This document shows positions 14,431 through 22,633 of a stretch of DNA of 64,000 bases, one piece after another. The notes under the pieces are model-generated. The model saw only the letters and a list, made by a program, of their open reading frames with translations, made no database searches and was not told where the DNA came from. Where the stretch lies: NCBI GenBank assembly GCA_963750305.1, contig CAVVPX010000002.1, positions 616,845 through 680,844 of the forward strand. Reading direction: 5' to 3'. The position numbers and the translations under genes are program-made. The DNA comes from an uncultured Actinomycetota bacterium (lineage in GTDB: Bacteria; Actinomycetota; Actinomycetes; Actinomycetales; Dermatophilaceae). The first letter of the stretch is position 1; every line of letters starts with the position of its first letter.

Positions 14431-14970
14431 ATGAGCACCCGCCACGCCGTCGTGGACACCGCGATCGGACCGTTGACCGTGGTCCGAGACGACCACGGCC
14501 TGACCGGGATCTACTTCCCCGGCCACTGGACCCGCCCGGACGAGCTGGCCTGGGGCGACCGGGTCTCCGGCGGTGACGCCGATCTGCTCGACGCCGACCT
14601 GCTCGACGCCGATCTGCTCGACGCCGTCACGCAGGTGCACGAGTACCTCGCCGGTGCCCGCCGCGAATTCGACCTGACCCTCAACCCACACGGAACCGCG
14701 CGGGCCCGTCAGCTCTGGACGCTGCTCAGCCAGATCCCCTATGGCCGGACCACGACCTACGGGGCACTGGCAGCCGAGCTCGGTGGCGGCGTCAGCGCGC
14801 GTGCGGTCGGCGGTTTCGTCGGCCACAACCCGATCTCGATCGTGGTGCCGTGCCATCGCGTCGTCGGCGCGACGGGCAAGCTCACCGGGTACGCCGGCGG
14901 GTTGGAGCGCAAGGAGCACCTCCTCGCGCTGGAGGGCGCGGTGCCGGCCCCGACCCCCGCGCTGTTCTAG
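14431..14970 (+). CDS. ogt: Methylated-DNA--protein-cysteine methyltransferase
   Basis: Active site IVVPCHRVVGATGKLTGYAGG. Confidence 0.9.
   Translation: MSTRHAVVDTAIGPLTVVRDDHGLTGIYFPGHWTRPDELAWGDRVSGGDADLLDADLLDADLLDAVTQVHEYLAGARREFDLTLNPHGTARARQLWTLLSQIPYGRTTTYGALAAELGGGVSARAVGGFVGHNPISIVVPCHRVVGATGKLTGYAGGLERKEHLLALEGAVPAPTPALF
14575..14625 (+). repeat. In-frame 15-bp tandem repeat x3.4 inside ogt
   Basis: gacgccga(t/c)ctgctc repeated, encoding DADLL DADLL DADLL DA. Confidence 0.85.
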
Positions 14971-14972
14971 TC

Positions 14973-15512
14973 GTGGTGCCGCCCACCGCGCGGTCCACCT
15001 GGCCGGCGTCCAAGGAGCCGTTCGAGGCGGTGGTCACCCGGCACGGACCGATGGTGCTGCGCGTGGTGCGGGCGGTGCTCGGCCCGGACGAGGCCGACGA
15101 CGCCTGGTCGGAGACCTTCCTCGCCGCGATGCGCGCCTATCCCGACCTGCCTGCCGATGCGAACGTCGCGGCCTGGCTGGTCACCATCGGCCACCGCAAA
15201 GCGGTCGATGTGGTCCGCGCCGCCGCCCGACGGGCCGCACCGGTCCAGGACGTTCCGGATTCCGTTGCCCCGCAACGGGCCGATGCGCGAGACCTCGACC
15301 TCGCGTCGGCGGTCGCCGCGCTGCCGCCCAAGCAGCGGCAGGCCGTGGCCTACCACTATCTCGCCGGGCTCCCGTATGCCGAGATCGGACCCCTGCTCGG
15401 CAGCAGCGAGGCGGCCGCGCGCCGGTCCGCCGCCGACGGGATCGCCGCGCTCCGGCGCACCCATCCGGACCTCACCGCCGCCGACGGCGGACCGAAGGAG
15501 AACCTGCCATGA
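14973..15512 (+). CDS. ECF-type sigma-70 family RNA polymerase sigma factor
   Basis: Region 2 (DDAWSETFLAAMRAY..AAWLVTIGHRKAVD) and region 4 (LPPKQRQAVAYHYLAGLPYAEIGPLLGSSEAAARRS). GTG start lies 3 nt after the ogt stop. Confidence 0.8.
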   Translation: MVPPTARSTWPASKEPFEAVVTRHGPMVLRVVRAVLGPDEADDAWSETFLAAMRAYPDLPADANVAAWLVTIGHRKAVDVVRAAARRAAPVQDVPDSVAPQRADARDLDLASAVAALPPKQRQAVAYHYLAGLPYAEIGPLLGSSEAAARRSAADGIAALRRTHPDLTAADGGPKENLP

Positions 15513-16114
15513 CCCCCACCGACCTGACGACGGCATACCCCGTGCCTGAGGTCGACCTGGCCCGGCTGCAGACCCGCCTCGCGGGCGCGGCCGACGCCGA
15601 TGGACTGCTGGACGTCGGCTACCGCACGCTGGACACCCCGGTCGGCGCCCTCCTGTTGGCCGCCACCCCGGCAGGACTGGTGCGCGTCGCGTTCGCCGGC
15701 GAGGGCCACGACACCGTGCTGCAGACCCTGAGCGAGCAGATCAGCCCGCGGCTGCTGAACGCGCCTGCGCGCCTCGACGAGGTCGCCCGCCAGCTCGACG
15801 ACTACTTCGCCGGCCGCCGCCAGCGGTTCGACCTGCCGCTGGACTGGCAGCTCTCCCGCGGCTTCCGCCGCACCGTCCTGGGTCACCTCGCGACCGACAT
15901 CGGCTACGGCGCCACCGCCTCGTATGCCGTCCTGGCCAACCTCGCGGGGAGCCCGAACGCCGTGCGTGCGGTCGGGACCGCCTGCGCCACCAACCCGATC
16001 CCGGTCGTCGTCCCGTGTCATCGCGTGGTGCGCTCGGACGGCTCGATGGGTGGATACCGCGGGGGCCCGGATGCGAAGCGGGTGCTGCTCCACCTCGAGG
16101 GTCACGCGGCCTGA
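15509..16114 (+). CDS. Methylated-DNA--protein-cysteine methyltransferase paralog
   Basis: ATGA overlap with the sigma gene, SD GAAGGAG. Active site VVVPCHRVVRSDGSMGGYRGG. Confidence 0.85.
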   Translation: MTPTDLTTAYPVPEVDLARLQTRLAGAADADGLLDVGYRTLDTPVGALLLAATPAGLVRVAFAGEGHDTVLQTLSEQISPRLLNAPARLDEVARQLDDYFAGRRQRFDLPLDWQLSRGFRRTVLGHLATDIGYGATASYAVLANLAGSPNAVRAVGTACATNPIPVVVPCHRVVRSDGSMGGYRGGPDAKRVLLHLEGHAA

Positions 16115-16677: not shown

Positions 16678-17908
16678 ATGACCGTTCGCACCGTGGCCAT
16701 GCTGACCGCAGGCGGGCTCGCCCCCTGCCTGTCCTCGGCCGTCGGCGGCCTGATCGAGCGGTACACCGAGATCGCCCCTGACGTGCGGATCATCGCCTAC
16801 CGCAACGGGTACGCCGGTCTGCTCACGGGCGACTCGGTCGAGGTCACCCCCGAGGTGCGCGAGAAGGCCGCGCTCCTGCACCGCTTCGGCGGCAGCCCCA
16901 TCGGCAACAGCCGGGTCAAGCTGACCAACGTCAAGGACTGCGTGAAGCGTGGCCTGGTCAAGGAGGGGCAGGACCCGCTGCACGTTGCGGCCGAGCAGCT
17001 CACCCAGGACGGCGTCGACGTGCTGCACACGATCGGCGGGGACGACACCAACACCACTGCGGCCGACCTCGCGGCCTACCTCGGGTCGAACGACTACCCG
17101 CTCACCGTGGTCGGGCTGCCCAAGACCATCGACAACGACGTGGTCCCGATCCGTCAGTCCCTCGGCGCATGGACCGCGGCCGAGCAGGGTGCGATCTTCG
17201 CTCGCAACGTGATCGCCGAGCACACGTCCAACCCCCGCATGCTCGTCGTGCACGAGGTCATGGGTCGCAACTGCGGCTGGCTCACTGCCGCCACCGCCAA
17301 GGCGCACCACGACTGGGTGACCTCGACGGAGTTCTCCGGTTGGCTCGACAACGACTCACGCACCTGGGACGTGCACGGCGTGTACGTCCCCGAGCAGCCG
17401 TTCGACATCGCCGCCGAGGCCGCGCGTCTCCGAGCGGTGATGGACGAGTTCGACAACGTGACCATCTTCCTGTCCGAGGGCGCCGGCCTGAACGAGGTCG
17501 TCGCCGAGCTGGAGGCCAGCGGTGCGGACGTCCCCCGCGACCCGTTCGGCCACGTGCAGCTCGACAAGGTGAACCCGGGGGCGTGGTTCGCCAAGCAGTT
17601 CGCCAAGCAGCTCGGTGCGGACAAGGTCCTGGTCCAGAAGTCCGGATACTTCTCGCGGTCGGCGGCGGCCAACGACGCCGACCTCGCGCTGATCCGCGAG
17701 TGCACCGACAAGGCCGTCGACTGTGCCCTCGAGGGCGTGTCGGGTGTGGTCGGACACGACGAGGAGCGCGGTGACGAGCTGCGGGCGATCGAGTTCCCGC
17801 GCATCAAGGGCGGCAAGGAGTTCGACCCCCTCCACCGCGTGGTTCGCCGAGCTGCTCGCGGACATCGGTCAGGCCCAGAGCAGCGAGGCCGGCGGGCCTA
17901 CAGCTTGA
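16678..17908 (+). CDS. pfp: Pyrophosphate/ATP-dependent 6-phosphofructokinase; needs a 1-nt frame correction at C-run 17826-17830 (ORF as read ends at 18021)
   Basis: MLTAGGLAPCLSS, GGDDTNTTA, GLPKTIDNDV motifs. The expected C-terminus STAWFAELLADIGQAQ is in the +1 frame after FDP. Confidence 0.8.
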
Positions 17909-18329
17909 GGAGGGACTCGCGCATGCCCTGCTCCGCCTCGTCGCCCAGCTTCTTCAGCGGGATCACCATCAGCGGCGAGAGCAGGCTGGCGATCCCCTTG
18001 AAGGTGAAGTCGGCCAGATAGGTGACGGTCGTCCGGTTCGCGTCGCCGGAGAAGGTCATCGTGTCGACGGCCGTCACGGTCTTGTTGACCCCGCGAAGCT
18101 GGAACTTCTGTTCGGGCACCAGGTCGGTCACCGTGTACTCCAGGTCGGACTCCTTGCCCAGGAAGCTGCTGGTGTTGCTGTACACCGTGCCGACCTCACC
18201 TCCACCGGAGGCGCGCGTGGTCCGGACGGTGCCGGGGTCCCACTCGGTCGTGTTCGTGAAGTCGGACAGATAGGCCCAGACCGCGCTCAGGGGTCGGTCC
18301 ACGGTCACGGTGCGTTCTACGCTCGGCAT
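17898..18329 (-). CDS. SRPBCC family protein (CoxG/polyketide cyclase-like)
   Basis: MPSVERTVTVDRPLSAVWAYLSDFTNTTEWDPG. GAGGAG SD before ATG 18329. Confidence 0.75.
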   Translation of the reverse strand: MPSVERTVTVDRPLSAVWAYLSDFTNTTEWDPGTVRTTRASGGGEVGTVYSNTSSFLGKESDLEYTVTDLVPEQKFQLRGVNKTVTAVDTMTFSGDANRTTVTYLADFTFKGIASLLSPLMVIPLKKLGDEAEQGMRESLLKL

Positions 18330-18389
18330 GCTGCTCCTCGGGGTTGATACCAGTGTCCCCCGCGATCGGCCGCGCGGCATCCCCGGCGG

Positions 18390-18456
18390 TCCGGTCGGCG
18401 CGGGTTCGGCGCGGGTTCGGCGCAGGTTCGGCGCAGGTTCGGCGCGGGTTCGGCCC
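18390..18456. repeat. 11-bp tandem repeat x5-6 (cgggttcggcg)
   Basis: Read directly. Intergenic, upstream of the SRPBCC gene and downstream of the His-rich gene. Confidence 0.85.
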
Positions 18457-18460
18457 GGCG

Positions 18461-18949
18461 TCAGACCGGGGTGGGCCAGCTGACCTGGGTGACCTCGCCG
18501 CCCACGACCGAGGCGGTCATCGCGATGTCGTCGCCCGGGATCGGCACCAGCTCGTACTCGCCCTCGACCACCGAGGGGTACACCAGGGTGTAGGCCGGGC
18601 CGTCCGGTCCGGGGCGACCGACGACGCCGACGTGCGGGTACGGCGAGGCCGGGTGGGCGTGACCGGTCGGCCCGTCGTGGTCGTGGCCGTGGTCGTGGCT
18701 GTGGCTGTGGCTGTGGTCGTGCTGGTGGTCGTGGCTGTGGTGGTGACTCTGGCCGTCATCGTGACCCTGTTGGTCAGTCGTGGCGCCGCCACCCTCAGCG
18801 GTCTTGGCGGCGGTCGCGCCCGCCGGACGGATCTCGACCTCGAGGTCCTCCAGCGAGGCAGGCATGGTGACGATGAGCGCACCGACGTCCCCGCCGATGT
18901 CGAGCATCACCGGCCCCTGACCGGCGTTCGGGTTCTCTGCAGTGGGCAC
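18461..18949 (-). CDS. His-rich hypothetical protein (putative metal-binding)
   Basis: GTG start with AGGAG SD. Central HHHSHDHQHDHSHSHSHDHGHDHD tract. No signal peptide. Confidence 0.65.
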   Translation of the reverse strand: MPTAENPNAGQGPVMLDIGGDVGALIVTMPASLEDLEVEIRPAGATAAKTAEGGGATTDQQGHDDGQSHHHSHDHQHDHSHSHSHDHGHDHDGPTGHAHPASPYPHVGVVGRPGPDGPAYTLVYPSVVEGEYELVPIPGDDIAMTASVVGGEVTQVSWPTPV

Positions 18950-18961
18950 GGCGGTACTCCT

Positions 18962-19006
18962 GGTGCGGTGGGTGCGGTGGGTGCGGTGGGTGCGGTGGTT
19001 GCGGTG
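18962..19006. repeat. 9-bp tandem repeat x5 (ggtgcggtg) abutting the SD of the His-rich gene
   Basis: Read directly. On the minus strand it reads CACCGCACC and is in frame with the downstream CDS (His-Arg-Thr). Confidence 0.85.
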
Positions 19007-19158
19007 GTTGGCTGGTGCGTGCGCAGACGCTGCGGAGCCAGCTCAGCAGGTCAGCCCAGGACGAACCTACGCCGCCCGCGAGGCGGACGGCGTAGGGAAG
19101 AGCAAGGTGGACCGGCCGGGACTGCCGGTAGCCCCGACCGGTCCGGTCTTGGTGAGGC

Positions 19159-20553
19159 CTAGTTCTTGGTGGCCTCGGGCGGCGACGTCATCGCCTGGTA
19201 GCCACCGGTCGGCACCCCGAGGTAGGGGAACACGTTCAGGGTCGGCGGGCGGGGGGTGTCAACCGTCCCGTCCTCCAACAGCGACGCGGCCCCATCGGGG
19301 GTGAACGACGGGTCGACCAGGGGGATGGTCGCGCCCGCGACGGCCTTGAGCTCGATCGCCGTCACGTCGTCGGTGACCCGACGTCCGTTCGGGAAGCCGG
19401 CCAGGTCGCCGCCCAGGATCCCGTTGGGGCTGGGGTTCCTGGTCGTCGGCGGGATGGCCACGTTCAGACGCAGCATGTCCGCCTGGACCGGTCCGGTGTA
19501 GTTCTGGAAGCCGTCGATGATCCCCTTCGGGATACCGGTGAGCAGGATCGCGAGCAGGTCGGCCCGGTCCTTGTCGTACCCGGCGAGGTTCGGGAACACG
19601 CCGGGGTACAGCACGGGCAGCAGCCCGGCCAGCTCCGGCTTGGCGACGTAGTTCGCGTACTGCTTGTCGTACTGGGGCTCCTTGGCGTTCCAGCGGTCCT
19701 TCTCGGCCATCGGGGTGATGACCTCGTTGAACAGCGGCATGCCCAGGCGGGAGACCTGCTTGAAGGCGCCCGTCGAGATGGTCTTGCCCGTCTCGTTGTC
19801 GAACACGCGGGTGCGCTGGCGGCTGGCGGTCGCCCAGACTCCGATGGTGGAGTTGGGGTCGTCGAAGGCCGTCGGCGTGACGCCGCCCTTGGTGAGGTCA
19901 CTGATCGGCACCTGGATGGCGATCGAGTGGACGTTGAGGAAGGCCAGGCCGTTCTTGCCCTCCTGCGACGGGGTGGGGATGAGGTGCAGGTTCTGGAACG
20001 GACGCAGGACACCGAGGTCGAAGATGCTGCCGGTGTCGACGAAGAAGCCGTCGGCGCGCTGCCCGGCGAACACCTTGCGACCGCCCTTGATCGACTTGAT
20101 CGCGTCCTGGGCGAGCGCCGCATAGTTCGGGGTGCTGCGCGGGCCGACGTTGACCGGCGGGCACGGCAGGTTCTTGGCCAGCGGCTTCCACCCGCCCGCG
20201 CGGTCGTAGCGGACCACCGAGTACGTCTGCGGGCGGTTCCAGCTCGGGCTGCTGAGCGAGGTGATCGGCCCGGTGTTGTACAGGAACGTGTTGTTGTTGC
20301 GGATCGCCGTGTCGAACCGGAACCGGAAGACGACGTCAGCCTCGGACGTGCCGCGGTTACTGATGTTGATCTCGTAGAGCACGTCGGTGCCGAACTCGTA
20401 GAAGTTCGGTCCGCCCTGCGGGTCCTGGAACGGGATGAAGTTGGCGATCAGGGTGACGGTGTCCGGCTTGTCGGGACTGACGAACGCATAGACGTCCGTG
20501 TTGTCGACGACCGGGTCCTTGGAGATCTCTGGGGCTTCGCGGTGTGAACTCAT
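19159..20553 (-). CDS. DUF4331 domain protein, without its own signal peptide
   Basis: Starts MSSHREAPEISKDPVVDNTDVYAFVSPD, the hallmark DUF4331 N-terminal block. SD GAGGAG. Confidence 0.8.
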   Translation of the reverse strand: MSSHREAPEISKDPVVDNTDVYAFVSPDKPDTVTLIANFIPFQDPQGGPNFYEFGTDVLYEINISNRGTSEADVVFRFRFDTAIRNNNTFLYNTGPITSLSSPSWNRPQTYSVVRYDRAGGWKPLAKNLPCPPVNVGPRSTPNYAALAQDAIKSIKGGRKVFAGQRADGFFVDTGSIFDLGVLRPFQNLHLIPTPSQEGKNGLAFLNVHSIAIQVPISDLTKGGVTPTAFDDPNSTIGVWATASRQRTRVFDNETGKTISTGAFKQVSRLGMPLFNEVITPMAEKDRWNAKEPQYDKQYANYVAKPELAGLLPVLYPGVFPNLAGYDKDRADLLAILLTGIPKGIIDGFQNYTGPVQADMLRLNVAIPPTTRNPSPNGILGGDLAGFPNGRRVTDDVTAIELKAVAGATIPLVDPSFTPDGAASLLEDGTVDTPRPPTLNVFPYLGVPTGGYQAMTSPPEATKN

Positions 20554-20554
20554 G

Positions 20555-20815
20555 TCAGCTCCTCGCAGCCTTGGTCAGGCGGCGCACCAGCGCCGGGTCG
20601 TGGATCTCAACCTCGTCCTCGCCCACCATGACGGTGACGACGCCGGACTTGGGGTTCTGGATGTAGGCGACGAGGGTGGCGCTGCTCAGTGCCTCGGCCG
20701 CTTCTGCTGCGGATGTGGGCGCCGCAAAGGCGCTCGGTGCAGCAGCAACGACGGCCACGGTGGCCGCCCCCGCTCCTGCTGCGGCGATGAAACCGCGTCG
20801 TGTGGCATCAGCCAT
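20555..20815 (-). CDS. Small Tat-signal protein (86 aa), hypothetical
   Basis: Twin-arginine motif DATRRGFIAAAGAG, h-region, AFAAP cleavage-like site. The stop is 1 nt before the DUF4331 ATG. Confidence 0.65.
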   Translation of the reverse strand: MADATRRGFIAAAGAGAATVAVVAAAPSAFAAPTSAAEAAEALSSATLVAYIQNPKSGVVTVMVGEDEVEIHDPALVRRLTKAARS

Positions 20816-21073
20816 CTGTGCTCAGTTCCCTTCAGGAACGCACCGGACCACGGTCCGGCGCAAGGGTTTCAGGTCGAAGGACGACCTGTGGTCAACGGTG
20901 ACCGGCAGTGATTCGGAGACCTCGCCCGATCGGATGGGACCACCCCGGACATCCACCCGATCGCTGCCCGGCACCTCGGTCGGATGACCCTGTCGGACCG
21001 CGCGGCTATCATCGAAGGCGCTCCGCAGCGCCGCGTGAGCCCTCACCCCTGCGCCACCCCTGAGAGGTTCACC

Positions 21074-22633
21074 ATGTCTGCCCCAGCCCAGCTGAAGTAC
21101 CCCGACAAGATCGACGGCGCCGTCCTCAAGATCGCCGGGGTCGTCGTGCTCGGCGCGATCATGTCGATCCTGGACATCACCGTCGTCAACGTCGCCCTGC
21201 CGGTGTTCCAGCAGGTCTTCGCCGACGACCCGTCCAAGCCCCTGGCCTACTCCTCGGTCGCGTGGACGGTGACCGCATACACGCTCGCGCTGGCCACGGT
21301 GATCCCCCTGACCGGTTGGGCCGCCGACCGGTTCGGCACCAAGCGGCTCTACATCGCGGCCATCGTGATGTTCACCCTGGGCTCGGCCCTCTGCGCCTCC
21401 GCGAGCTCGATCGAGATGCTCATCTCCTTCCGTGTGCTCCAGGGCCTCGGCGGCGGCATGCTCATGCCGCTCGGCATGACGATCATGACCCGCGCGGCCG
21501 GTCCGGCCCGGATGGGGCGCCTCATGGCGATCCTGGGCGTACCGATGCTGCTCGGGCCGATCTTCGGTCCGATCCTGGGCGGCTGGCTCATCGAGGTGCG
21601 GAGCTGGCACTGGATCTTCCTGATCAACGTGCCGATCGGCGCGGTCGCGGTGGTCTACGCGCTGTGGGCACTGCCCAAGGACACCGCGAAGGCAGCGGAG
21701 AAGCTTGACGTCGTCGGCGTTGCGCTGATGTCACCCGGTCTGGCGCTCTTCCTGTACGGCATCTCCTCGATCCCAGCCAAGGGCACCATCCTGGATGCCG
21801 AGGTGCTGGTCACGATGATCATCGGACTCGCCCTGATCGCGGCCTTCGTCCGGCACTCCTTCCGCCCGGAGCACCCGTTGCTGGACCTGCGGCTGTTCAA
21901 GAACCGCAACCTCAGCGCGTCGAGCGCGACCATGTTCCTGTTCGCCGCGGCGTTCTTCGGCGGACTCCTGCTGATCCCGACCTACTACCAGTCGGTGCGC
22001 GGTGAGTCGACGATCGACGCCGGCTGGCTAGTGGCCCCGCAGGGCCTGGGCGCGATGCTCACCATGCCGATCGCCGGCGCGCTGGTCGACAAGTTCCCGG
22101 TGGGGCGGATCGTCCCGTTCGGACTGGTCCTGATCATCGGCGGCATGTCCGCTCTGACGACCCTGGCCTCCGACACGTCGTACTGGACGATCAGCATCAT
22201 CCTGTTCGTCATGGGTCTGGGGATGGGCGGCACGATGATGCCGATCATGACCACCGCGCTGAAGACGCTGACCTCCCACGAGGTGGCGCGTGGCTCGACC
22301 CTGCTCAACATCGTCCAGCAGATCGCCAGCTCGATCGGCGTCGCGATCATGTCGGTCATCCTGACCAACAACCTCAAGGCGTCCGACATCGCGCAGCCGG
22401 CGATGGCGAGCCTGCGCGACCCGTCGCTGGTCGACCAGCTGGGTGGGCCCGCCGCGGTGGCCGCAGGCCTGAAGGAAGCCGCCGAGGCGTTTGCGAACAC
22501 CTATGTCGTCGCAGCCATCCTGGTCACGCTGACGCTCATCCCGGCCTACTTCCTGCCGCGCAGGCGTGAGGTCTCGCACCTGCTCGACGACGTGCAGGGC
22601 GCCGAGGGCGTGCCTCCGGTGCTCATGCACTGA
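21074..22633 (+). CDS. DHA2-family (14-TMS) MFS efflux transporter
   Basis: ILDITVVNVALP, GWAADRFGTKRLY motifs. ATG 21074 with GAGAGG SD. Confidence 0.85.
   Translation: MSAPAQLKYPDKIDGAVLKIAGVVVLGAIMSILDITVVNVALPVFQQVFADDPSKPLAYSSVAWTVTAYTLALATVIPLTGWAADRFGTKRLYIAAIVMFTLGSALCASASSIEMLISFRVLQGLGGGMLMPLGMTIMTRAAGPARMGRLMAILGVPMLLGPIFGPILGGWLIEVRSWHWIFLINVPIGAVAVVYALWALPKDTAKAAEKLDVVGVALMSPGLALFLYGISSIPAKGTILDAEVLVTMIIGLALIAAFVRHSFRPEHPLLDLRLFKNRNLSASSATMFLFAAAFFGGLLLIPTYYQSVRGESTIDAGWLVAPQGLGAMLTMPIAGALVDKFPVGRIVPFGLVLIIGGMSALTTLASDTSYWTISIILFVMGLGMGGTMMPIMTTALKTLTSHEVARGSTLLNIVQQIASSIGVAIMSVILTNNLKASDIAQPAMASLRDPSLVDQLGGPAAVAAGLKEAAEAFANTYVVAAILVTLTLIPAYFLPRRREVSHLLDDVQGAEGVPPVLMH

What the first reader, a model, noticed from the sequence alone, without database searches (positions are those of the whole stretch)
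18461..20815. Tat-signal mini-protein + signal-less DUF4331 + His-rich protein: candidate uncharacterised metal-handling / hitch-hiker export module
Three co-directional minus-strand genes form this module.
1. 20555-20815 encodes 86 aa with a textbook twin-arginine signal (DATRRGFIAAAGAG...AFAAP). Only about 50 mature residues follow.
2. One nucleotide after its stop (TGAcATG, SD GAGGAG) a 464-aa DUF4331 protein starts directly with MSSHREAPEISKDP. From memory, DUF4331 proteins normally have their own signal peptide, and SSHREAP is the first conserved block of the mature protein. Here the only export signal is on the mini-protein. This points to Tat co-export of a folded complex, as in hydrogenase small/large subunits, or to a split gene.
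3. 209 bp downstream a 162-aa protein carries HHHSHDHQHDHSHSHSHDHGHDHD.

After Met removal or signal cleavage the N-terminus Ser-Ser-His is an ATCUN-type NH2-X-X-His Cu(II)/Ni(II) site. DUF4331 has no established function. The combination argues for a metal (Cu/Ni/Zn) acquisition, buffering or maturation role.
Basis: inference. Interest (0 to 1): 0.7.

Follow-up and report, generated by a model that had tools for sequence, protein, structure and literature searches.

The report
Tat escort operon for signal-less DUF4331
A tiny protein that carries only a Tat export signal is almost always encoded just upstream of signal-less versions of a widespread, unstudied protein family (DUF4331), which suggests piggy-back export of a folded protein that probably binds nickel or copper.

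Summary
Three co-directional minus-strand genes are present:
- an 86-aa twin-arginine mini-protein (20555-20815);
- a 464-aa signal-less DUF4331 protein starting MSSHREAP (19159-20553);
- a 162-aa His-rich protein (18461-18949).

It is not a split gene. In 80 other genomes (Actinomycetota, Chloroflexota/Dormibacterota, archaeal MAGs), signal-less DUF4331 is preceded by a homologous Tat mini-ORF in about 77 loci. It is followed by the third protein in about 72.

Nineteen loci whose DUF4331 has its own signal peptide have neither partner (Fisher p = 1.6e-18). Those loci instead carry TPR plus HupE/UreJ_2 or NicO-like membrane proteins.

His is always residue 3 of the predicted mature chain, through signal-peptidase cleavage or Met removal. 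That is an ATCUN-type N-terminus. A NiCoT nickel/cobalt permease adjoins the module in 8 of the 80 loci.

DUF4331 has no solved structural relative, and I found no literature on it. An ECF-type promoter motif (CCATCC-N15-CCGAA) precedes the operon. In three loci the same motif also precedes an adjacent sigma/RskA gene pair.

Best reading: MelC1/MelC2-like Tat hitch-hiker export of a metal-binding protein. Export, complex formation and metal binding are inferred, not shown. The His tract is lineage-specific.

The parts
20912..20937 (-). ECF-sigma-type promoter-like motif, CCATCC(G)-N15-CCGAA(T). The predicted transcription start is about 90 nt upstream of the mini-protein ATG.
   Evidence: It is the only match in the 64-kb window. 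ATCC-N15-CCGAA lies upstream of the mini gene in 15 of 73 loci, against 0.003 expected per region. A relaxed form is found in about 35 of 73. The same motif sits 32 nt upstream of the adjacent ECF sigma gene of a sigma/RskA pair in L033, L034 and L080.
20816..20905 (-). Structured 5' leader with four hairpins. The last hairpin, GUUCCUGAAGGGAAC, covers the purine-rich stretch just upstream of the start codon.
   Evidence: MFE -41.8 kcal/mol, z = -3.44, and 0 of 200 shuffles fold as well. No Rfam family matches. Function is unknown.
20555..20815 (-). Tat-signal mini-protein, 86 aa. The signal peptide is residues 1-31 (nt 20723-20815), ending SAFA|AP. The mature part is 55 aa and includes a conserved domain of about 35 aa, LVAYIxxPxSGxxxxMVGEDEVEIHDPALVRRL. 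This is the proposed escort.
   Evidence: 29 direct homologs show invariant R6 R7 and a conserved C-terminal block. An HMM built from them hits an ORF immediately upstream of DUF4331 in 74 of 80 loci, and 73 of the 75 HMM-hit ORFs, the window's own included, carry [ST]RRx[FL]. Three further divergent copies were found by eye. NCBI names an ortholog 'twin-arginine translocation signal domain-containing protein'. A profile search of PDB sequences matches only the Tat signal peptides of known substrates. No Pfam or NCBIfam family matches.
19159..20553 (-). Signal-less DUF4331 protein, 464 aa, the proposed Tat cargo. After Met removal the N-terminus is Ser-Ser-His (ATCUN-type X-X-His).
   Evidence: PF14224 at E = 5.9e-141. 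All 120 closest homologs start MSSHREAP or very near it. The AF2 model has pLDDT 88.8 and pTM 0.90, with a mixed beta/alpha fold and residues 1-10 at pLDDT 57. There is no Foldseek hit in PDB (best E = 0.02, TM <= 0.16) and no profile hit. Invariant residues across both classes include S3, H4, A7, P8, D17, T19, D20, Y22, F24, D179, K285, R330, R362, N364, G390 and R391.
19040..19158 (-). Two strong GC-rich stem-loops of 15 and 14 bp directly after the DUF4331 stop. They could act as a terminator, an attenuator or an mRNA stabiliser between genes 2 and 3.
   Evidence: MFE -68.9 kcal/mol, z = -4.73, and 0 of 200 shuffles fold as well. There is no U-tail, and the consensus terminator scan does not call them.
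18461..18949 (-). Third gene, 162 aa, with no signal peptide. It forms a small beta-sandwich interrupted by a disordered His/Asp-rich loop (about residues 50-100, nt 18650-18800). It is a proposed cytoplasmic accessory protein or metallochaperone.
   Evidence: 578 homologs. It lies directly downstream of DUF4331 in about 72 of 80 loci. In the AF2 model the core has pLDDT above 90 and the loop 50-59. Foldseek gives only weak generic Ig/CBM20/prealbumin-like hits, E >= 0.02. Residues conserved across 72 loci: E37 (100%), H106 (99%), R112 (99%), plus L16, D17, G19, G23, A24, E39, G130, Y132 and G151. The His-rich loop is lineage-specific. No Pfam family matches. The UreE, ZnuA and SelP hits are low-complexity matches far below cut-off.

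Best explanation
This is one copy of a widely conserved, self-contained three-gene operon.

- Gene 1 encodes a minimal Tat escort: a cleavable twin-arginine signal peptide followed by a conserved domain of about 35 residues.
- Gene 2 encodes a DUF4331 protein that has lost its own signal peptide. Methionine aminopeptidase removes Met1 because Ser is at position 2 (established rule). This exposes, already in the cytoplasm, the same Ser-Ser-His N-terminus that signal peptidase creates in the Sec-exported majority of the family.
- Gene 3 encodes a cytoplasmic beta-sandwich protein with a conserved Glu/His/Arg site. In this lineage it also carries a long His/Asp loop.

Proposed mechanism:
1. DUF4331 folds in the cytoplasm.
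2. It is probably matured or metal-loaded there with help from the gene-3 protein. An N-terminal X-X-His site binds Ni(II) or Cu(II).
3. It binds the escort's small domain and crosses the membrane as a folded complex on the escort's Tat signal. Streptomyces MelC1 carries apotyrosinase MelC2 in the same way, and the gamma subunit of FAD-glucose dehydrogenase carries its catalytic subunit.
4. Outside the cell, DUF4331 acts as a metal-binding protein in the Ni/Co/Cu economy of the envelope.
5. Transcription is driven by a SigK/RskA-like ECF sigma factor.

Shown here:
- the genes themselves;
- the family-wide conservation of their linkage;
- the mutual exclusivity of 'own leader' and 'Tat mini-ORF upstream';
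- the invariant position of His3 in the mature chain;
- the Ni/Co-permease neighbours in related loci;
- the shared promoter motif.

Inferred:
- physical complex formation;
- Tat-dependent export;
- metal binding and which metal;
- the role of gene 3.
For: 1. Linkage. A scan of one genome per species returned 80 loci, all with signal-less DUF4331.
- HMMs of the window's neighbours hit an ORF ending -17 to +189 nt before DUF4331 in 74 loci. They hit an ORF starting just after it in about 72.
- 73 of the 75 HMM-hit mini ORFs, the window's own included, have [ST]RRx[FL].
- Three 'missing' loci have divergent or frameshifted Tat mini-ORFs. One of them is in a Nitrososphaerales chromosome.
- Flanking genes are not conserved, so the three genes form the unit.

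2. Complementarity. Nineteen distinct loci whose DUF4331 has its own leader have no mini-protein and no third protein. The one signal-less plasmid copy, L097, has both. Fisher p = 1.6e-18.

3. Single origin. All 22 full-length signal-less representatives form one pure split in an NJ tree of 107 sequences.

4. Mature N-terminus.
- In 90 leader-bearing representatives, position -1 is A (82), G (6) or S (2).
- Position -3 is A, V, T, G, S or L.
- The chain then starts SSH (84), ASH (4), TSH (1) or SNH (1). Signal-less ones start M-SSH.
- One representative, P0276, has its own Tat signal fused directly. So the same cargo family uses Sec, cis-Tat and apparently trans-Tat signals.

5. Metal context.
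- A NiCoT permease (PF03824, E = 3e-98) is adjacent in 8 of 80 loci.
- Leader-bearing DUF4331 is followed by TPR plus HupE_UreJ_2 (PF13795, E = 3e-43) in Marinobacter, Comamonadaceae, Lichenicola, Pseudoalteromonas and Variovorax.
- It is followed by TPR plus a NicO-like protein in Streptomyces, Embleya and Nonomuraea.

6. Tat link. In L030, tatA- and tatC-like genes directly follow the module.

7. Translational coupling in the window. The junction reads TGAcATG and the SD lies inside gene 1.

8. Precedents. MelC1 carries the Tat signal and MelC2 hitch-hikes (PMC2758597). The GDH gamma subunit is a dedicated Tat 'hitchhiker protein' (PMC6719666).

9. Regulation.
Against: - No experiment or interface model supports a mini-protein/DUF4331 complex.
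- No natural mini-DUF4331 fusion was seen among the best 150 representatives.
- The escort's mature domain is very small and has no conserved metal ligand.
- H4 is the only invariant His in DUF4331, and there is no invariant Cys. The invariant residues that follow (REAP...DxTDxYAF) suggest that the N-terminus may be part of a structured site rather than a free ATCUN tail.
- NiCoT adjacency occurs in only about 10% of loci and is absent from this window.
- HupE_UreJ_2 and the NicO-like proteins are themselves uncharacterised.
- The His-rich loop of gene 3 is missing in many orthologs.
- In this window two strong hairpins separate gene 3 from gene 2.
- Exporting a pre-loaded metal-binding protein is not an obvious way to acquire metal.
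Confidence: 0.6

Rival explanations
1. The hitch-hiker export is real, but DUF4331 is not a metalloprotein. It would be an extracytoplasmic enzyme or binding protein, for example acting on an envelope polymer or an anionic ligand. The invariant N-terminal Ser-Ser-His would then serve catalysis or structure, for example as an N-terminal nucleophile or a buried N-terminal plug. The permease-like neighbours would be unrelated to Ni/Co.
For: - Invariant residues are mostly Asp, Asn, Arg, Lys and aromatics, with a single His and no Cys.
- The segment after SSH is as conserved as SSH itself.
- The fold has no relative among known metalloproteins.
- HupE_UreJ_2 and the 549-aa NicO-like proteins have no tested function. 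The NicO match is only E = 2.6e-07.
- In Rhodobacterales the gene sits inside a type II secretion cluster with no permease nearby.
Against: - His is exactly at mature position 3 in both processing routes, which is the defining ATCUN geometry.
- A bona fide NiCoT lies next to the module in 8 of 80 loci, in three phyla.
- Close orthologs of gene 3 carry long His/Asp loops.
Confidence: 0.25
2. The genes are linked but there is no co-export. Signal-less DUF4331 works in the cytoplasm together with the gene-3 protein. The mini-protein is a separately exported or membrane-anchored small partner, for example a signalling or tethering peptide.
For: - DUF4331 and gene 3 both lack signal peptides.
- There is no direct evidence for a complex.
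- A mature domain of about 35 residues is smaller than any characterised Tat escort. The mature GDH gamma subunit is 121 aa.
- Cytoplasmic paralogues of exported systems exist. MelD2 with the signal-less MelD1 is intracellular.
Against: - The strict either/or between an own leader and an upstream Tat mini-ORF is hard to explain otherwise.
- The conserved part of the family begins exactly at the mature N-terminus in both classes.
- The genes are tightly or translationally coupled in many loci.
- tatA and tatC lie adjacent in L030.
Confidence: 0.13
3. Split gene, assembly error or programmed frameshift. Under this reading the mini-ORF and DUF4331 are really one Tat-signal-bearing gene.
For: Only one nucleotide separates the stop from the ATG in the window. 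At least one family member, P0276, does have a Tat signal fused in cis.
Against: - The two-ORF arrangement recurs in about 79 independent genomes, with gaps from -17 to +189 nt and varying relative frames.
- The mini-protein's C-terminal domain is conserved and has no equivalent in leader-bearing DUF4331.
- AGC-UGA-C is not a known slippery site, and the junction sequence is not conserved across loci.
Confidence: 0.02

Closest known systems
Streptomyces melC operon (MelC1 'caddie' / MelC2 tyrosinase)
   Same: It is a bicistronic actinobacterial operon. The upstream gene encodes a small protein with a Tat signal. The downstream gene encodes a signal-less metalloprotein that is activated and secreted only together with it (PMC2758597).
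   Different: There is no homology. The NCBIfam BagZ/FevE hit is E = 0.044 at 13.9 bits against a 200-bit cut-off, and the PDB caddie match covers only the signal peptide. MelC1 is larger and itself delivers Cu through His residues. This mini-protein has no conserved metal ligand, and a separate third protein is the candidate chaperone. The cargo is DUF4331, not a type-3 copper protein.
Small gamma 'hitchhiker' subunits of FAD-dependent dehydrogenase complexes (Burkholderia cepacia FAD-GDH)
   Same: A dedicated small subunit supplies the twin-arginine signal for a signal-less catalytic subunit (PMC6719666).
   Different: The gamma subunit is a 121-aa five-helix protein that stays in the enzyme complex. 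The escort here has a domain of about 35 residues and a different composition, and its fate after export is unknown.
Hetero-oligomeric Tat substrates: [NiFe]-hydrogenase small/large subunits and PaoABC
   Same: One signal-bearing subunit carries signal-less partners that fold and receive their cofactor in the cytoplasm. PaoABC is a three-component case (PMC4273604). The hydrogenase example rests on established knowledge.
   Different: Those signal-bearing subunits are full redox proteins with cofactors. This escort seems to do nothing except carry the signal. No redox cofactor motif is present.
Leader-bearing DUF4331 operons (DUF4331, small lipoprotein or Ig-like protein, TPR protein, HupE_UreJ_2 or NicO-like membrane protein)
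   Same: They share the same PF14224 family and the same predicted mature N-terminus, X-S-H-R-E-A-P. They are also uncharacterised and are sometimes preceded by an ECF sigma/anti-sigma pair.
   Different: They have their own, mostly Sec-type, signal peptide. They have no Tat mini-protein and no gene-3 homolog, and their partner set is different.
ATCUN (amino-terminal Cu(II)/Ni(II)-binding) motifs, e.g. serum albumin and histatin-5
   Same: They combine a free alpha-amine, a non-Pro residue 2 and His at position 3 (established definition). This is met at sequence level after the predicted processing.
   Different: ATCUN sites are usually short flexible tails of variable sequence. Here about 25 residues after the His are also nearly invariant, so the site may be more elaborate. 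Metal binding has not been tested.
Mycobacterial SigK/RskA (ECF19) regulon
   Same: RskA-type anti-sigma genes (PF10099) and ECF sigma genes lie next to the module in 9 and 16 loci respectively. A shared CCATCC-N15-CCGAA motif precedes both the sigma gene and the module. From memory, the M. tuberculosis SigK promoter is CCATCC/CCGAAT (Veyrier 2008), but that paper could not be opened.
   Different: No sigK/rskA pair lies in this window. The known SigK targets (mpt70, mpt83) are fasciclin proteins, not DUF4331.

Membership tests
DUF4331 (Pfam PF14224) | Full-length match to the family HMM above the gathering score | tested here: met
   470.9 bits against a cut-off of 27. Profile positions 1-421 align to residues 2-448.
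Tat (twin-arginine) signal peptide | [ST]-R-R-x-F-L-type motif in the n-region, a moderately hydrophobic h-region and an A-x-A cleavage site | tested here: met
   The window sequence is T-R-R-G-F-I...SAFA|AP. The motif is present in 73 of the 75 HMM-hit mini ORFs, the window's own included. The profile matches only the Tat signal regions of PDB chains. NCBI names an ortholog a Tat signal domain protein. No dedicated predictor such as TatP or SignalP was available.
Tat hitch-hiker (escort/cargo) systems | The signal-bearing and signal-less partners are encoded together, and the cargo's relatives are exported proteins | tested here: met
   Linkage in 79 of 81 signal-less loci against 0 of 19 leader-bearing loci. 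90 of 125 classifiable representatives carry leaders.
Tat hitch-hiker (escort/cargo) systems | The partners form a physical complex in the cytoplasm | not testable with these tools
   The structure tool returns no inter-chain contacts or PAE. No natural fusion was found among 150 representatives.
Tat hitch-hiker (escort/cargo) systems | Export of the signal-less partner depends on Tat and on the partner's RR motif | not testable with these tools
   This needs genetics and cell fractionation. The only hint is tatA/tatC adjacency in L030.
MelC1/caddie family (including BagZ/FevE) | Sequence homology of the mature domain | tested here: not met
   NF041221 gives E = 0.044 and 13.9 bits against a cut-off of 200. 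The PDB caddie match is E = 0.8 and covers residues 1-38 only.
ATCUN motif | His at position 3 of the mature chain, a free N-terminal amine and a non-Pro residue 2 | tested here: met
   This holds at sequence level only. Positions -1 and -3 follow the signal-peptidase rule in 90 leaders and leave X-S-H. Signal-less forms start M-S-S-H, and Ser at P1' allows Met removal (established rule).
ATCUN motif | Square-planar Cu(II)/Ni(II) binding by the N-terminus | not testable with these tools
   This needs spectroscopy, ITC or ICP-MS on protein with a native N-terminus.
His-rich nickel metallochaperones (UreE, HypB, SlyD) | Homology of the folded domain, not only of the His tract | tested here: not met
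   The UreE models give E = 0.0036-0.039 at 14-17 bits against cut-offs above 220, and cover only the His tract. SlyD gives E = 1.7. The fold is a generic beta-sandwich.
SigK/RskA-type (ECF19) regulon | Target promoter shared with the autoregulated sigma gene, and a cognate sigma/RskA pair | tested here: inconclusive
   The motif is present in the window. It is shared with the adjacent sigma gene in L033, L034 and L080. RskA_C has E = 5e-28 in L034. No sigK/rskA pair lies within this 64-kb window, and the published consensus could not be read.
Ni/Co uptake loci (NiCoT, HupE/UreJ) | A permease gene lies in or next to the operon | tested here: not met
   There is none in this window. It is met in 8 of 80 related loci for NiCoT and in most leader-bearing loci for HupE_UreJ_2 or NicO-like proteins.

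The most novel reading that the evidence does not exclude
DUF4331 would be a large, so far unrecognised class of extracytoplasmic proteins. The library of representatives at 50% identity holds more than 5,000 of them. Their function would depend on a processed N-terminal X-Ser-His Ni(II)/Cu(II) site. One ancient branch, found in Actinomycetota, Chloroflexota and some archaea, would have given up its signal peptide. That lets the mature N-terminus form, and be metal-loaded by a dedicated beta-sandwich chaperone, inside the cell. The holo-protein would then be exported through Tat by the smallest known escort, a domain of about 35 residues, under control of a SigK/RskA-type envelope-stress sigma factor.
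Probability: 0.25. Interest if true: 0.8.

Novelty: new member of a known kind. Interest (0 to 1): 0.62.

Why it matters
Tat hitch-hiking through a dedicated small escort is known from only a few systems, such as MelC1/MelC2 and the dehydrogenase gamma subunits.

This operon would add a very widespread and phylogenetically deep example built from three protein families with no described function. Two of them have no Pfam model.

The same cargo family occurs with a Sec signal, with a cis Tat signal and with a trans Tat signal. That gives a natural experiment on why cells choose folded export.

It also yields a concrete, testable idea about DUF4331 itself: a processed N-terminal X-X-His metal site linked to Ni/Co permeases. 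It connects the module to an ECF sigma regulon as well.

For genome annotation, the mini-ORF is short and easily missed. Signal-less DUF4331 would be wrongly predicted as cytoplasmic.

Tried and rejected
- **PDB sequence search for DUF4331.** The only hit, 8ugc 'FD15', is a designed Ala/Glu-rich repeat protein matched by composition. It is spurious. A profile search found nothing.
- **Foldseek against PDB.** There was nothing significant for DUF4331. The third protein gave only generic beta-sandwich hits.
- **Literature.** There were no papers for 'DUF4331', 'PF14224' or 'SSHREAP'. A HupE/UreJ plus TPR query found nothing. The SigK promoter paper (PMC2258859) is not held, and a SigK + CCGAAT search gave only irrelevant hits.
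- **Rfam scan of 17800-21400.** No riboswitch or other RNA family, including cobalamin or NiCo.
- **Sigma-70 promoter and intrinsic-terminator consensus scans.** Nothing relevant on the minus strand.
- **Natural mini-DUF4331 fusions.** The long N-terminal extensions in P0329, P0412 and P0414 look like out-of-frame GC-rich miscalls, not fusions.
- **Record lookup.** The look-up of encoding contigs could not find P0001, so the source record and organism name were not obtained. The closest relatives are Intrasporangiaceae such as Phycicoccus and Pedococcus.
- **Complex modelling.** I dropped the idea of modelling the complex as a fused chain. The tool reports only pLDDT, pTM and secondary structure, which could not distinguish docking from non-docking.
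- **Rejected readings.** Programmed +1 frameshift at AGC-UGA-C and a split gene (see rival explanations).
- **Tree rooting.** A midpoint-rooted MRCA test of monophyly was uninformative. I replaced it with an unrooted split test.

Full report
**1. Observation**

- **Gene 1 (20555-20815, 86 aa).** It begins MADATRRGFIAAAGAGAATVAVVAAAPSAFA|AP. This gives a T-R-R-x-F-I twin-arginine motif, a mildly hydrophobic Ala/Gly/Val h-region and an A-x-A cleavage site. The predicted mature part is 55 residues.
- **Gene 2 (19159-20553, 464 aa).** It starts one nucleotide after the stop of gene 1 (TGAcATG), with GAGGAG 5 nt upstream. Its ATG is the first possible start after an in-frame stop, so it cannot have a hidden leader. 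It matches PF14224 (DUF4331) at E = 5.9e-141, and the model's first position aligns to residue 2.
- **Gene 3 (18461-18949, 162 aa).** It starts 209 bp downstream at a GTG with an AGGAG Shine-Dalgarno sequence. It contains the His/Asp tract and has no signal peptide.
- **Flanks.** A DHA2-type MFS efflux gene is transcribed divergently upstream (20984-22633). An SRPBCC gene follows downstream (17898-18380).

**2. Are the genes real, and is the linkage more than chance?**

All three proteins are under purifying selection.

- The mini-protein has 29 word-index homologs. They share invariant R6 R7 and a conserved C-terminal block, LVAYxxDPxSGxxxxMVGEDEVEIHDPALVRRL.
- The third protein has 578 homologs. 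Its N- and C-terminal halves are conserved and are separated by a variable His-rich insert.
- The 120 closest DUF4331 homologs are 457-502 aa long and all start MSSHREAP or very near it.

A scan of one genome per species returned 80 loci. All of them encode signal-less DUF4331. They come from many families of Actinomycetota, including Acidimicrobiia and Solirubrobacterales. They also come from Chloroflexota/Dormibacterota, from two 'Bathyarchaeota' MAGs and from a Nitrososphaerales chromosome.

- HMMs built from the window's neighbours hit an ORF directly upstream in 74 loci and an ORF directly downstream in about 72.
- 73 of the 75 HMM-hit mini ORFs, the window's own included, carry [ST]RRx[FL].
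- Three of the six 'missing' loci have divergent or frameshifted Tat mini-ORFs (L033, L034, L048). One locus has almost no upstream sequence (L050).
- Gaps between mini stop and DUF4331 start range from -17 to +189 nt, and 32 of 56 measured gaps are 18 nt or less.
- Apart from these three genes, no neighbour is present in more than 16 loci. The three genes are therefore a self-contained unit.

**3. The complementarity test**

The library of representatives at 50% identity holds 5,422 DUF4331 relatives. Among the best 150:

- 90 have an N-terminal leader;
- 34 begin M-S-S-H-R-E-A-P;
- 25 are fragments or unclassifiable.

The leaders are mostly Sec-like. Seven contain an RRxFL-like motif. One (P0276) is a clear Tat signal fused directly to the domain.

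I collected 19 distinct leader-bearing loci from plasmid records and metagenome contigs. None has a mini-protein homolog or a gene-3 homolog. The one signal-less copy found on a plasmid (Kitasatospora, L097) has both. The comparison is 79 of 81 against 0 of 19, Fisher p = 1.6e-18.

In an unrooted NJ tree of 107 full-length representatives, all 22 signal-less sequences fall on one side of a single split. This fits a single loss of the leader and a single gain of the escort.

These results refute the split-gene, sequencing-error and frameshift readings. They are the main support for escort-mediated export.

**4. The mature N-terminus**

In the 90 leader-bearing representatives:

- position -1 relative to X-S-H is A (82), G (6) or S (2);
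- position -3 is A, V, T, G, S or L;
- this is the signal-peptidase I pattern, and cleavage leaves SSH (84), ASH (4), TSH (1) or SNH (1).

In the signal-less class, Met1 precedes Ser, which is a methionine-aminopeptidase substrate (established rule). His is therefore the third residue of the mature chain throughout the family. That is the sequence definition of an ATCUN Cu(II)/Ni(II) site.

This also suggests why a trans signal could be useful. A signal-less cargo has its finished N-terminus already in the cytoplasm. That last step is inference.

H4 is the only invariant His, and there is no invariant Cys. The next ~25 residues (REAPxIxxDPxxDxTDxYAF) are almost as conserved. The site may therefore be more than a floppy ATCUN tail.

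**5. Structure**

- The AF2 model of DUF4331 is confident (pLDDT 88.8, pTM 0.90). Only residues 1-10 and the C-terminal tail are weak.
- Foldseek finds no PDB relative (best E = 0.02, TM <= 0.16). A profile search of PDB sequences is empty.
- The third protein models as a small beta-sandwich with core pLDDT above 90 and a disordered loop at residues 50-100. Its structural matches are only weak, generic Ig/CBM20/prealbumin-like hits.
- Across 72 loci the third protein keeps E37 (100%), H106 (99%) and R112 (99%), plus D17 and E39. This could be a ligand or metal site.
- The His-rich loop has a median of 11 His in close relatives but is nearly absent in distant orthologs. The His tract is therefore an add-on of this lineage, not the defining feature.
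- The mini-protein's profile matches only the Tat signal peptides of known substrates: Fe-hydrogenase small subunit, NosZ, NapA, the MelC1 caddie and Rieske proteins. All are at non-significant E-values, and nothing matches its mature domain.

**6. Functional context**

- **NiCoT.** A NiCoT permease (PF03824, E = 3e-98) lies directly beside the module in 8 of 80 loci. In the Nitrososphaerales chromosome the order is Tat mini-ORF, DUF4331, NiCoT.
- **Proteobacterial leader-bearing operons.** DUF4331 genes in Marinobacter, Comamonadaceae, Lichenicola, Pseudoalteromonas and Variovorax head operons of this form: DUF4331, then a small lipoprotein or Ig-like protein, then a TPR protein, then a HupE_UreJ_2 membrane protein (PF13795, E = 3e-43).
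- **Actinobacterial leader-bearing operons.** In Streptomyces, Embleya and Nonomuraea the order is DUF4331, TPR, then a 549-aa NicO-like protein.
- **Rhodobacterales.** The gene sits inside a type II secretion cluster.
- **Tat genes.** In one Dormibacterota MAG, tatA- and tatC-like genes follow the module.

These associations point to Ni/Co, or to Cu through the ATCUN chemistry. They are circumstantial, and none of these neighbours is present in this window.

**7. Regulation (new)**

- Upstream of the mini gene the window has CCATCCG-N14-TCCGAAT at 20912-20937 (minus strand). It is the only match in the 64 kb.
- ATCC-N15-CCGAA occurs upstream of the mini gene in 15 of 73 loci, against 0.003 expected per region. 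A relaxed form occurs in about 35.
- ECF sigma genes lie near the module in 16 loci. RskA-type anti-sigma genes (PF10099, E = 5e-28) lie near it in 9.
- In L033, L034 and L080 the same motif lies 32 nt upstream of that sigma gene as well as upstream of the module. This is the expected pattern for an autoregulated ECF sigma and its target.
- From memory, this matches the mycobacterial SigK promoter. I could not open the paper to check.
- The predicted 90-nt leader folds into four hairpins (z = -3.4). Two strong hairpins (z = -4.7) separate genes 2 and 3. Their roles are unknown.

**8. Comparison with known systems**

- The closest analogue by mechanism is the Streptomyces melC operon. MelC1 is a small upstream-encoded protein with a Tat signal. 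It is required for copper loading and secretion of the signal-less tyrosinase MelC2.
- Also close are the gamma 'hitchhiker' subunits of FAD-dependent dehydrogenases, the hydrogenase small/large subunits, and PaoABC.
- There is no sequence homology to any of these escorts. The module is therefore a new, independent instance of a known mechanism, built from uncharacterised families.
- I found no literature on DUF4331.

**9. Verdict**

- The split-gene alternative is refuted.
- The hitch-hiker mechanism is well supported by comparative genomics but has not been tested.
- The metal role is plausible, with Ni or Cu more likely than Zn.
- The His tract is lineage-specific.
- Novelty: a new member of a known kind (Tat escort/cargo systems). 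There is a more novel possible reading about DUF4331 as a new class of N-terminal metal-site protein.
- Interest: 0.62.

Noticed in passing
window 18395-18458: A tandem repeat with an 11-nt unit and 5.8 copies (GCGCCGAACCC on the coding strand, 94% matches) lies immediately after the stop of the His-rich gene. It has no significant RNA structure (z = +0.8).
   Followed up: partly
window 18962-19007: A tandem repeat with a 9-nt unit and 5.1 copies (CACCGCACC on the coding strand, 97% matches) lies just upstream of the third gene's start. It sits inside the unusually long 209-bp spacer.
   Followed up: no
window 19040-19158: Two very stable GC-rich hairpins (15 and 14 bp, z = -4.7) follow the DUF4331 stop directly. 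They may be a U-tail-less terminator or an mRNA processing or stability element that uncouples gene 3.
   Followed up: partly
window 14741-16114: An ECF-type sigma factor ORF (14850-15512) is followed by, or overlaps, an ORF whose C-terminus looks like a methylated-DNA-protein-cysteine methyltransferase (PCHRVV motif). It is only weakly similar to the SigK-like sigma genes next to the module elsewhere, E = 8e-14.
   Followed up: partly
L030 2734-3921: In a Dormibacterota MAG, tatA-like and tatC-like ORFs lie directly downstream of DUF4331 and the third gene. No mini-ORF was detected in the 1 kb upstream.
   Followed up: partly
L048 5671-8526; also L037 and L066: Archaeal assemblies carry the Tat mini-ORF plus signal-less DUF4331 but lack the third gene. 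They are a Nitrososphaerales chromosome and two 'Bathyarchaeota' MAGs. In L048 a NiCoT permease takes the third gene's place. This could be horizontal transfer. For the two MAGs, mis-binning was not examined.
   Followed up: no
L085, L090, L091: In Rhodobacterales plasmids (Sulfitobacter, Jannaschia, Paracoccus), leader-bearing DUF4331 sits between an A24 prepilin peptidase gene and the gspK/J/F/E/D genes. In L090 and L091 a ~75-aa ORF follows it, lipoprotein-like where its sequence was read (L091). This suggests that it is a type II secretion substrate there.
   Followed up: no
L083 11262-11915: On a Streptomyces anulatus plasmid, a fasciclin-domain gene follows the DUF4331-TPR-NicO-like operon, and an ECF sigma gene lies upstream. 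From memory, fasciclin proteins (MPT70/MPT83) are the classic SigK targets in mycobacteria.
   Followed up: no
L084 8853-9962; L102 6900-8105: The HupE_UreJ_2 proteins in DUF4331 operons have an N-terminal extracytoplasmic domain of about 180 aa in front of the HupE-like membrane domain. The predicted mature chain of the L102 protein starts with His (AHA|HKASD).
   Followed up: no
window 20816-20905: The leader RNA of the operon folds into four hairpins (z = -3.4). The inverted repeats GGTCAccgtTGACC and GGACCgtGGTCC could equally be DNA operators shared with the divergent MFS efflux gene.
   Followed up: partly
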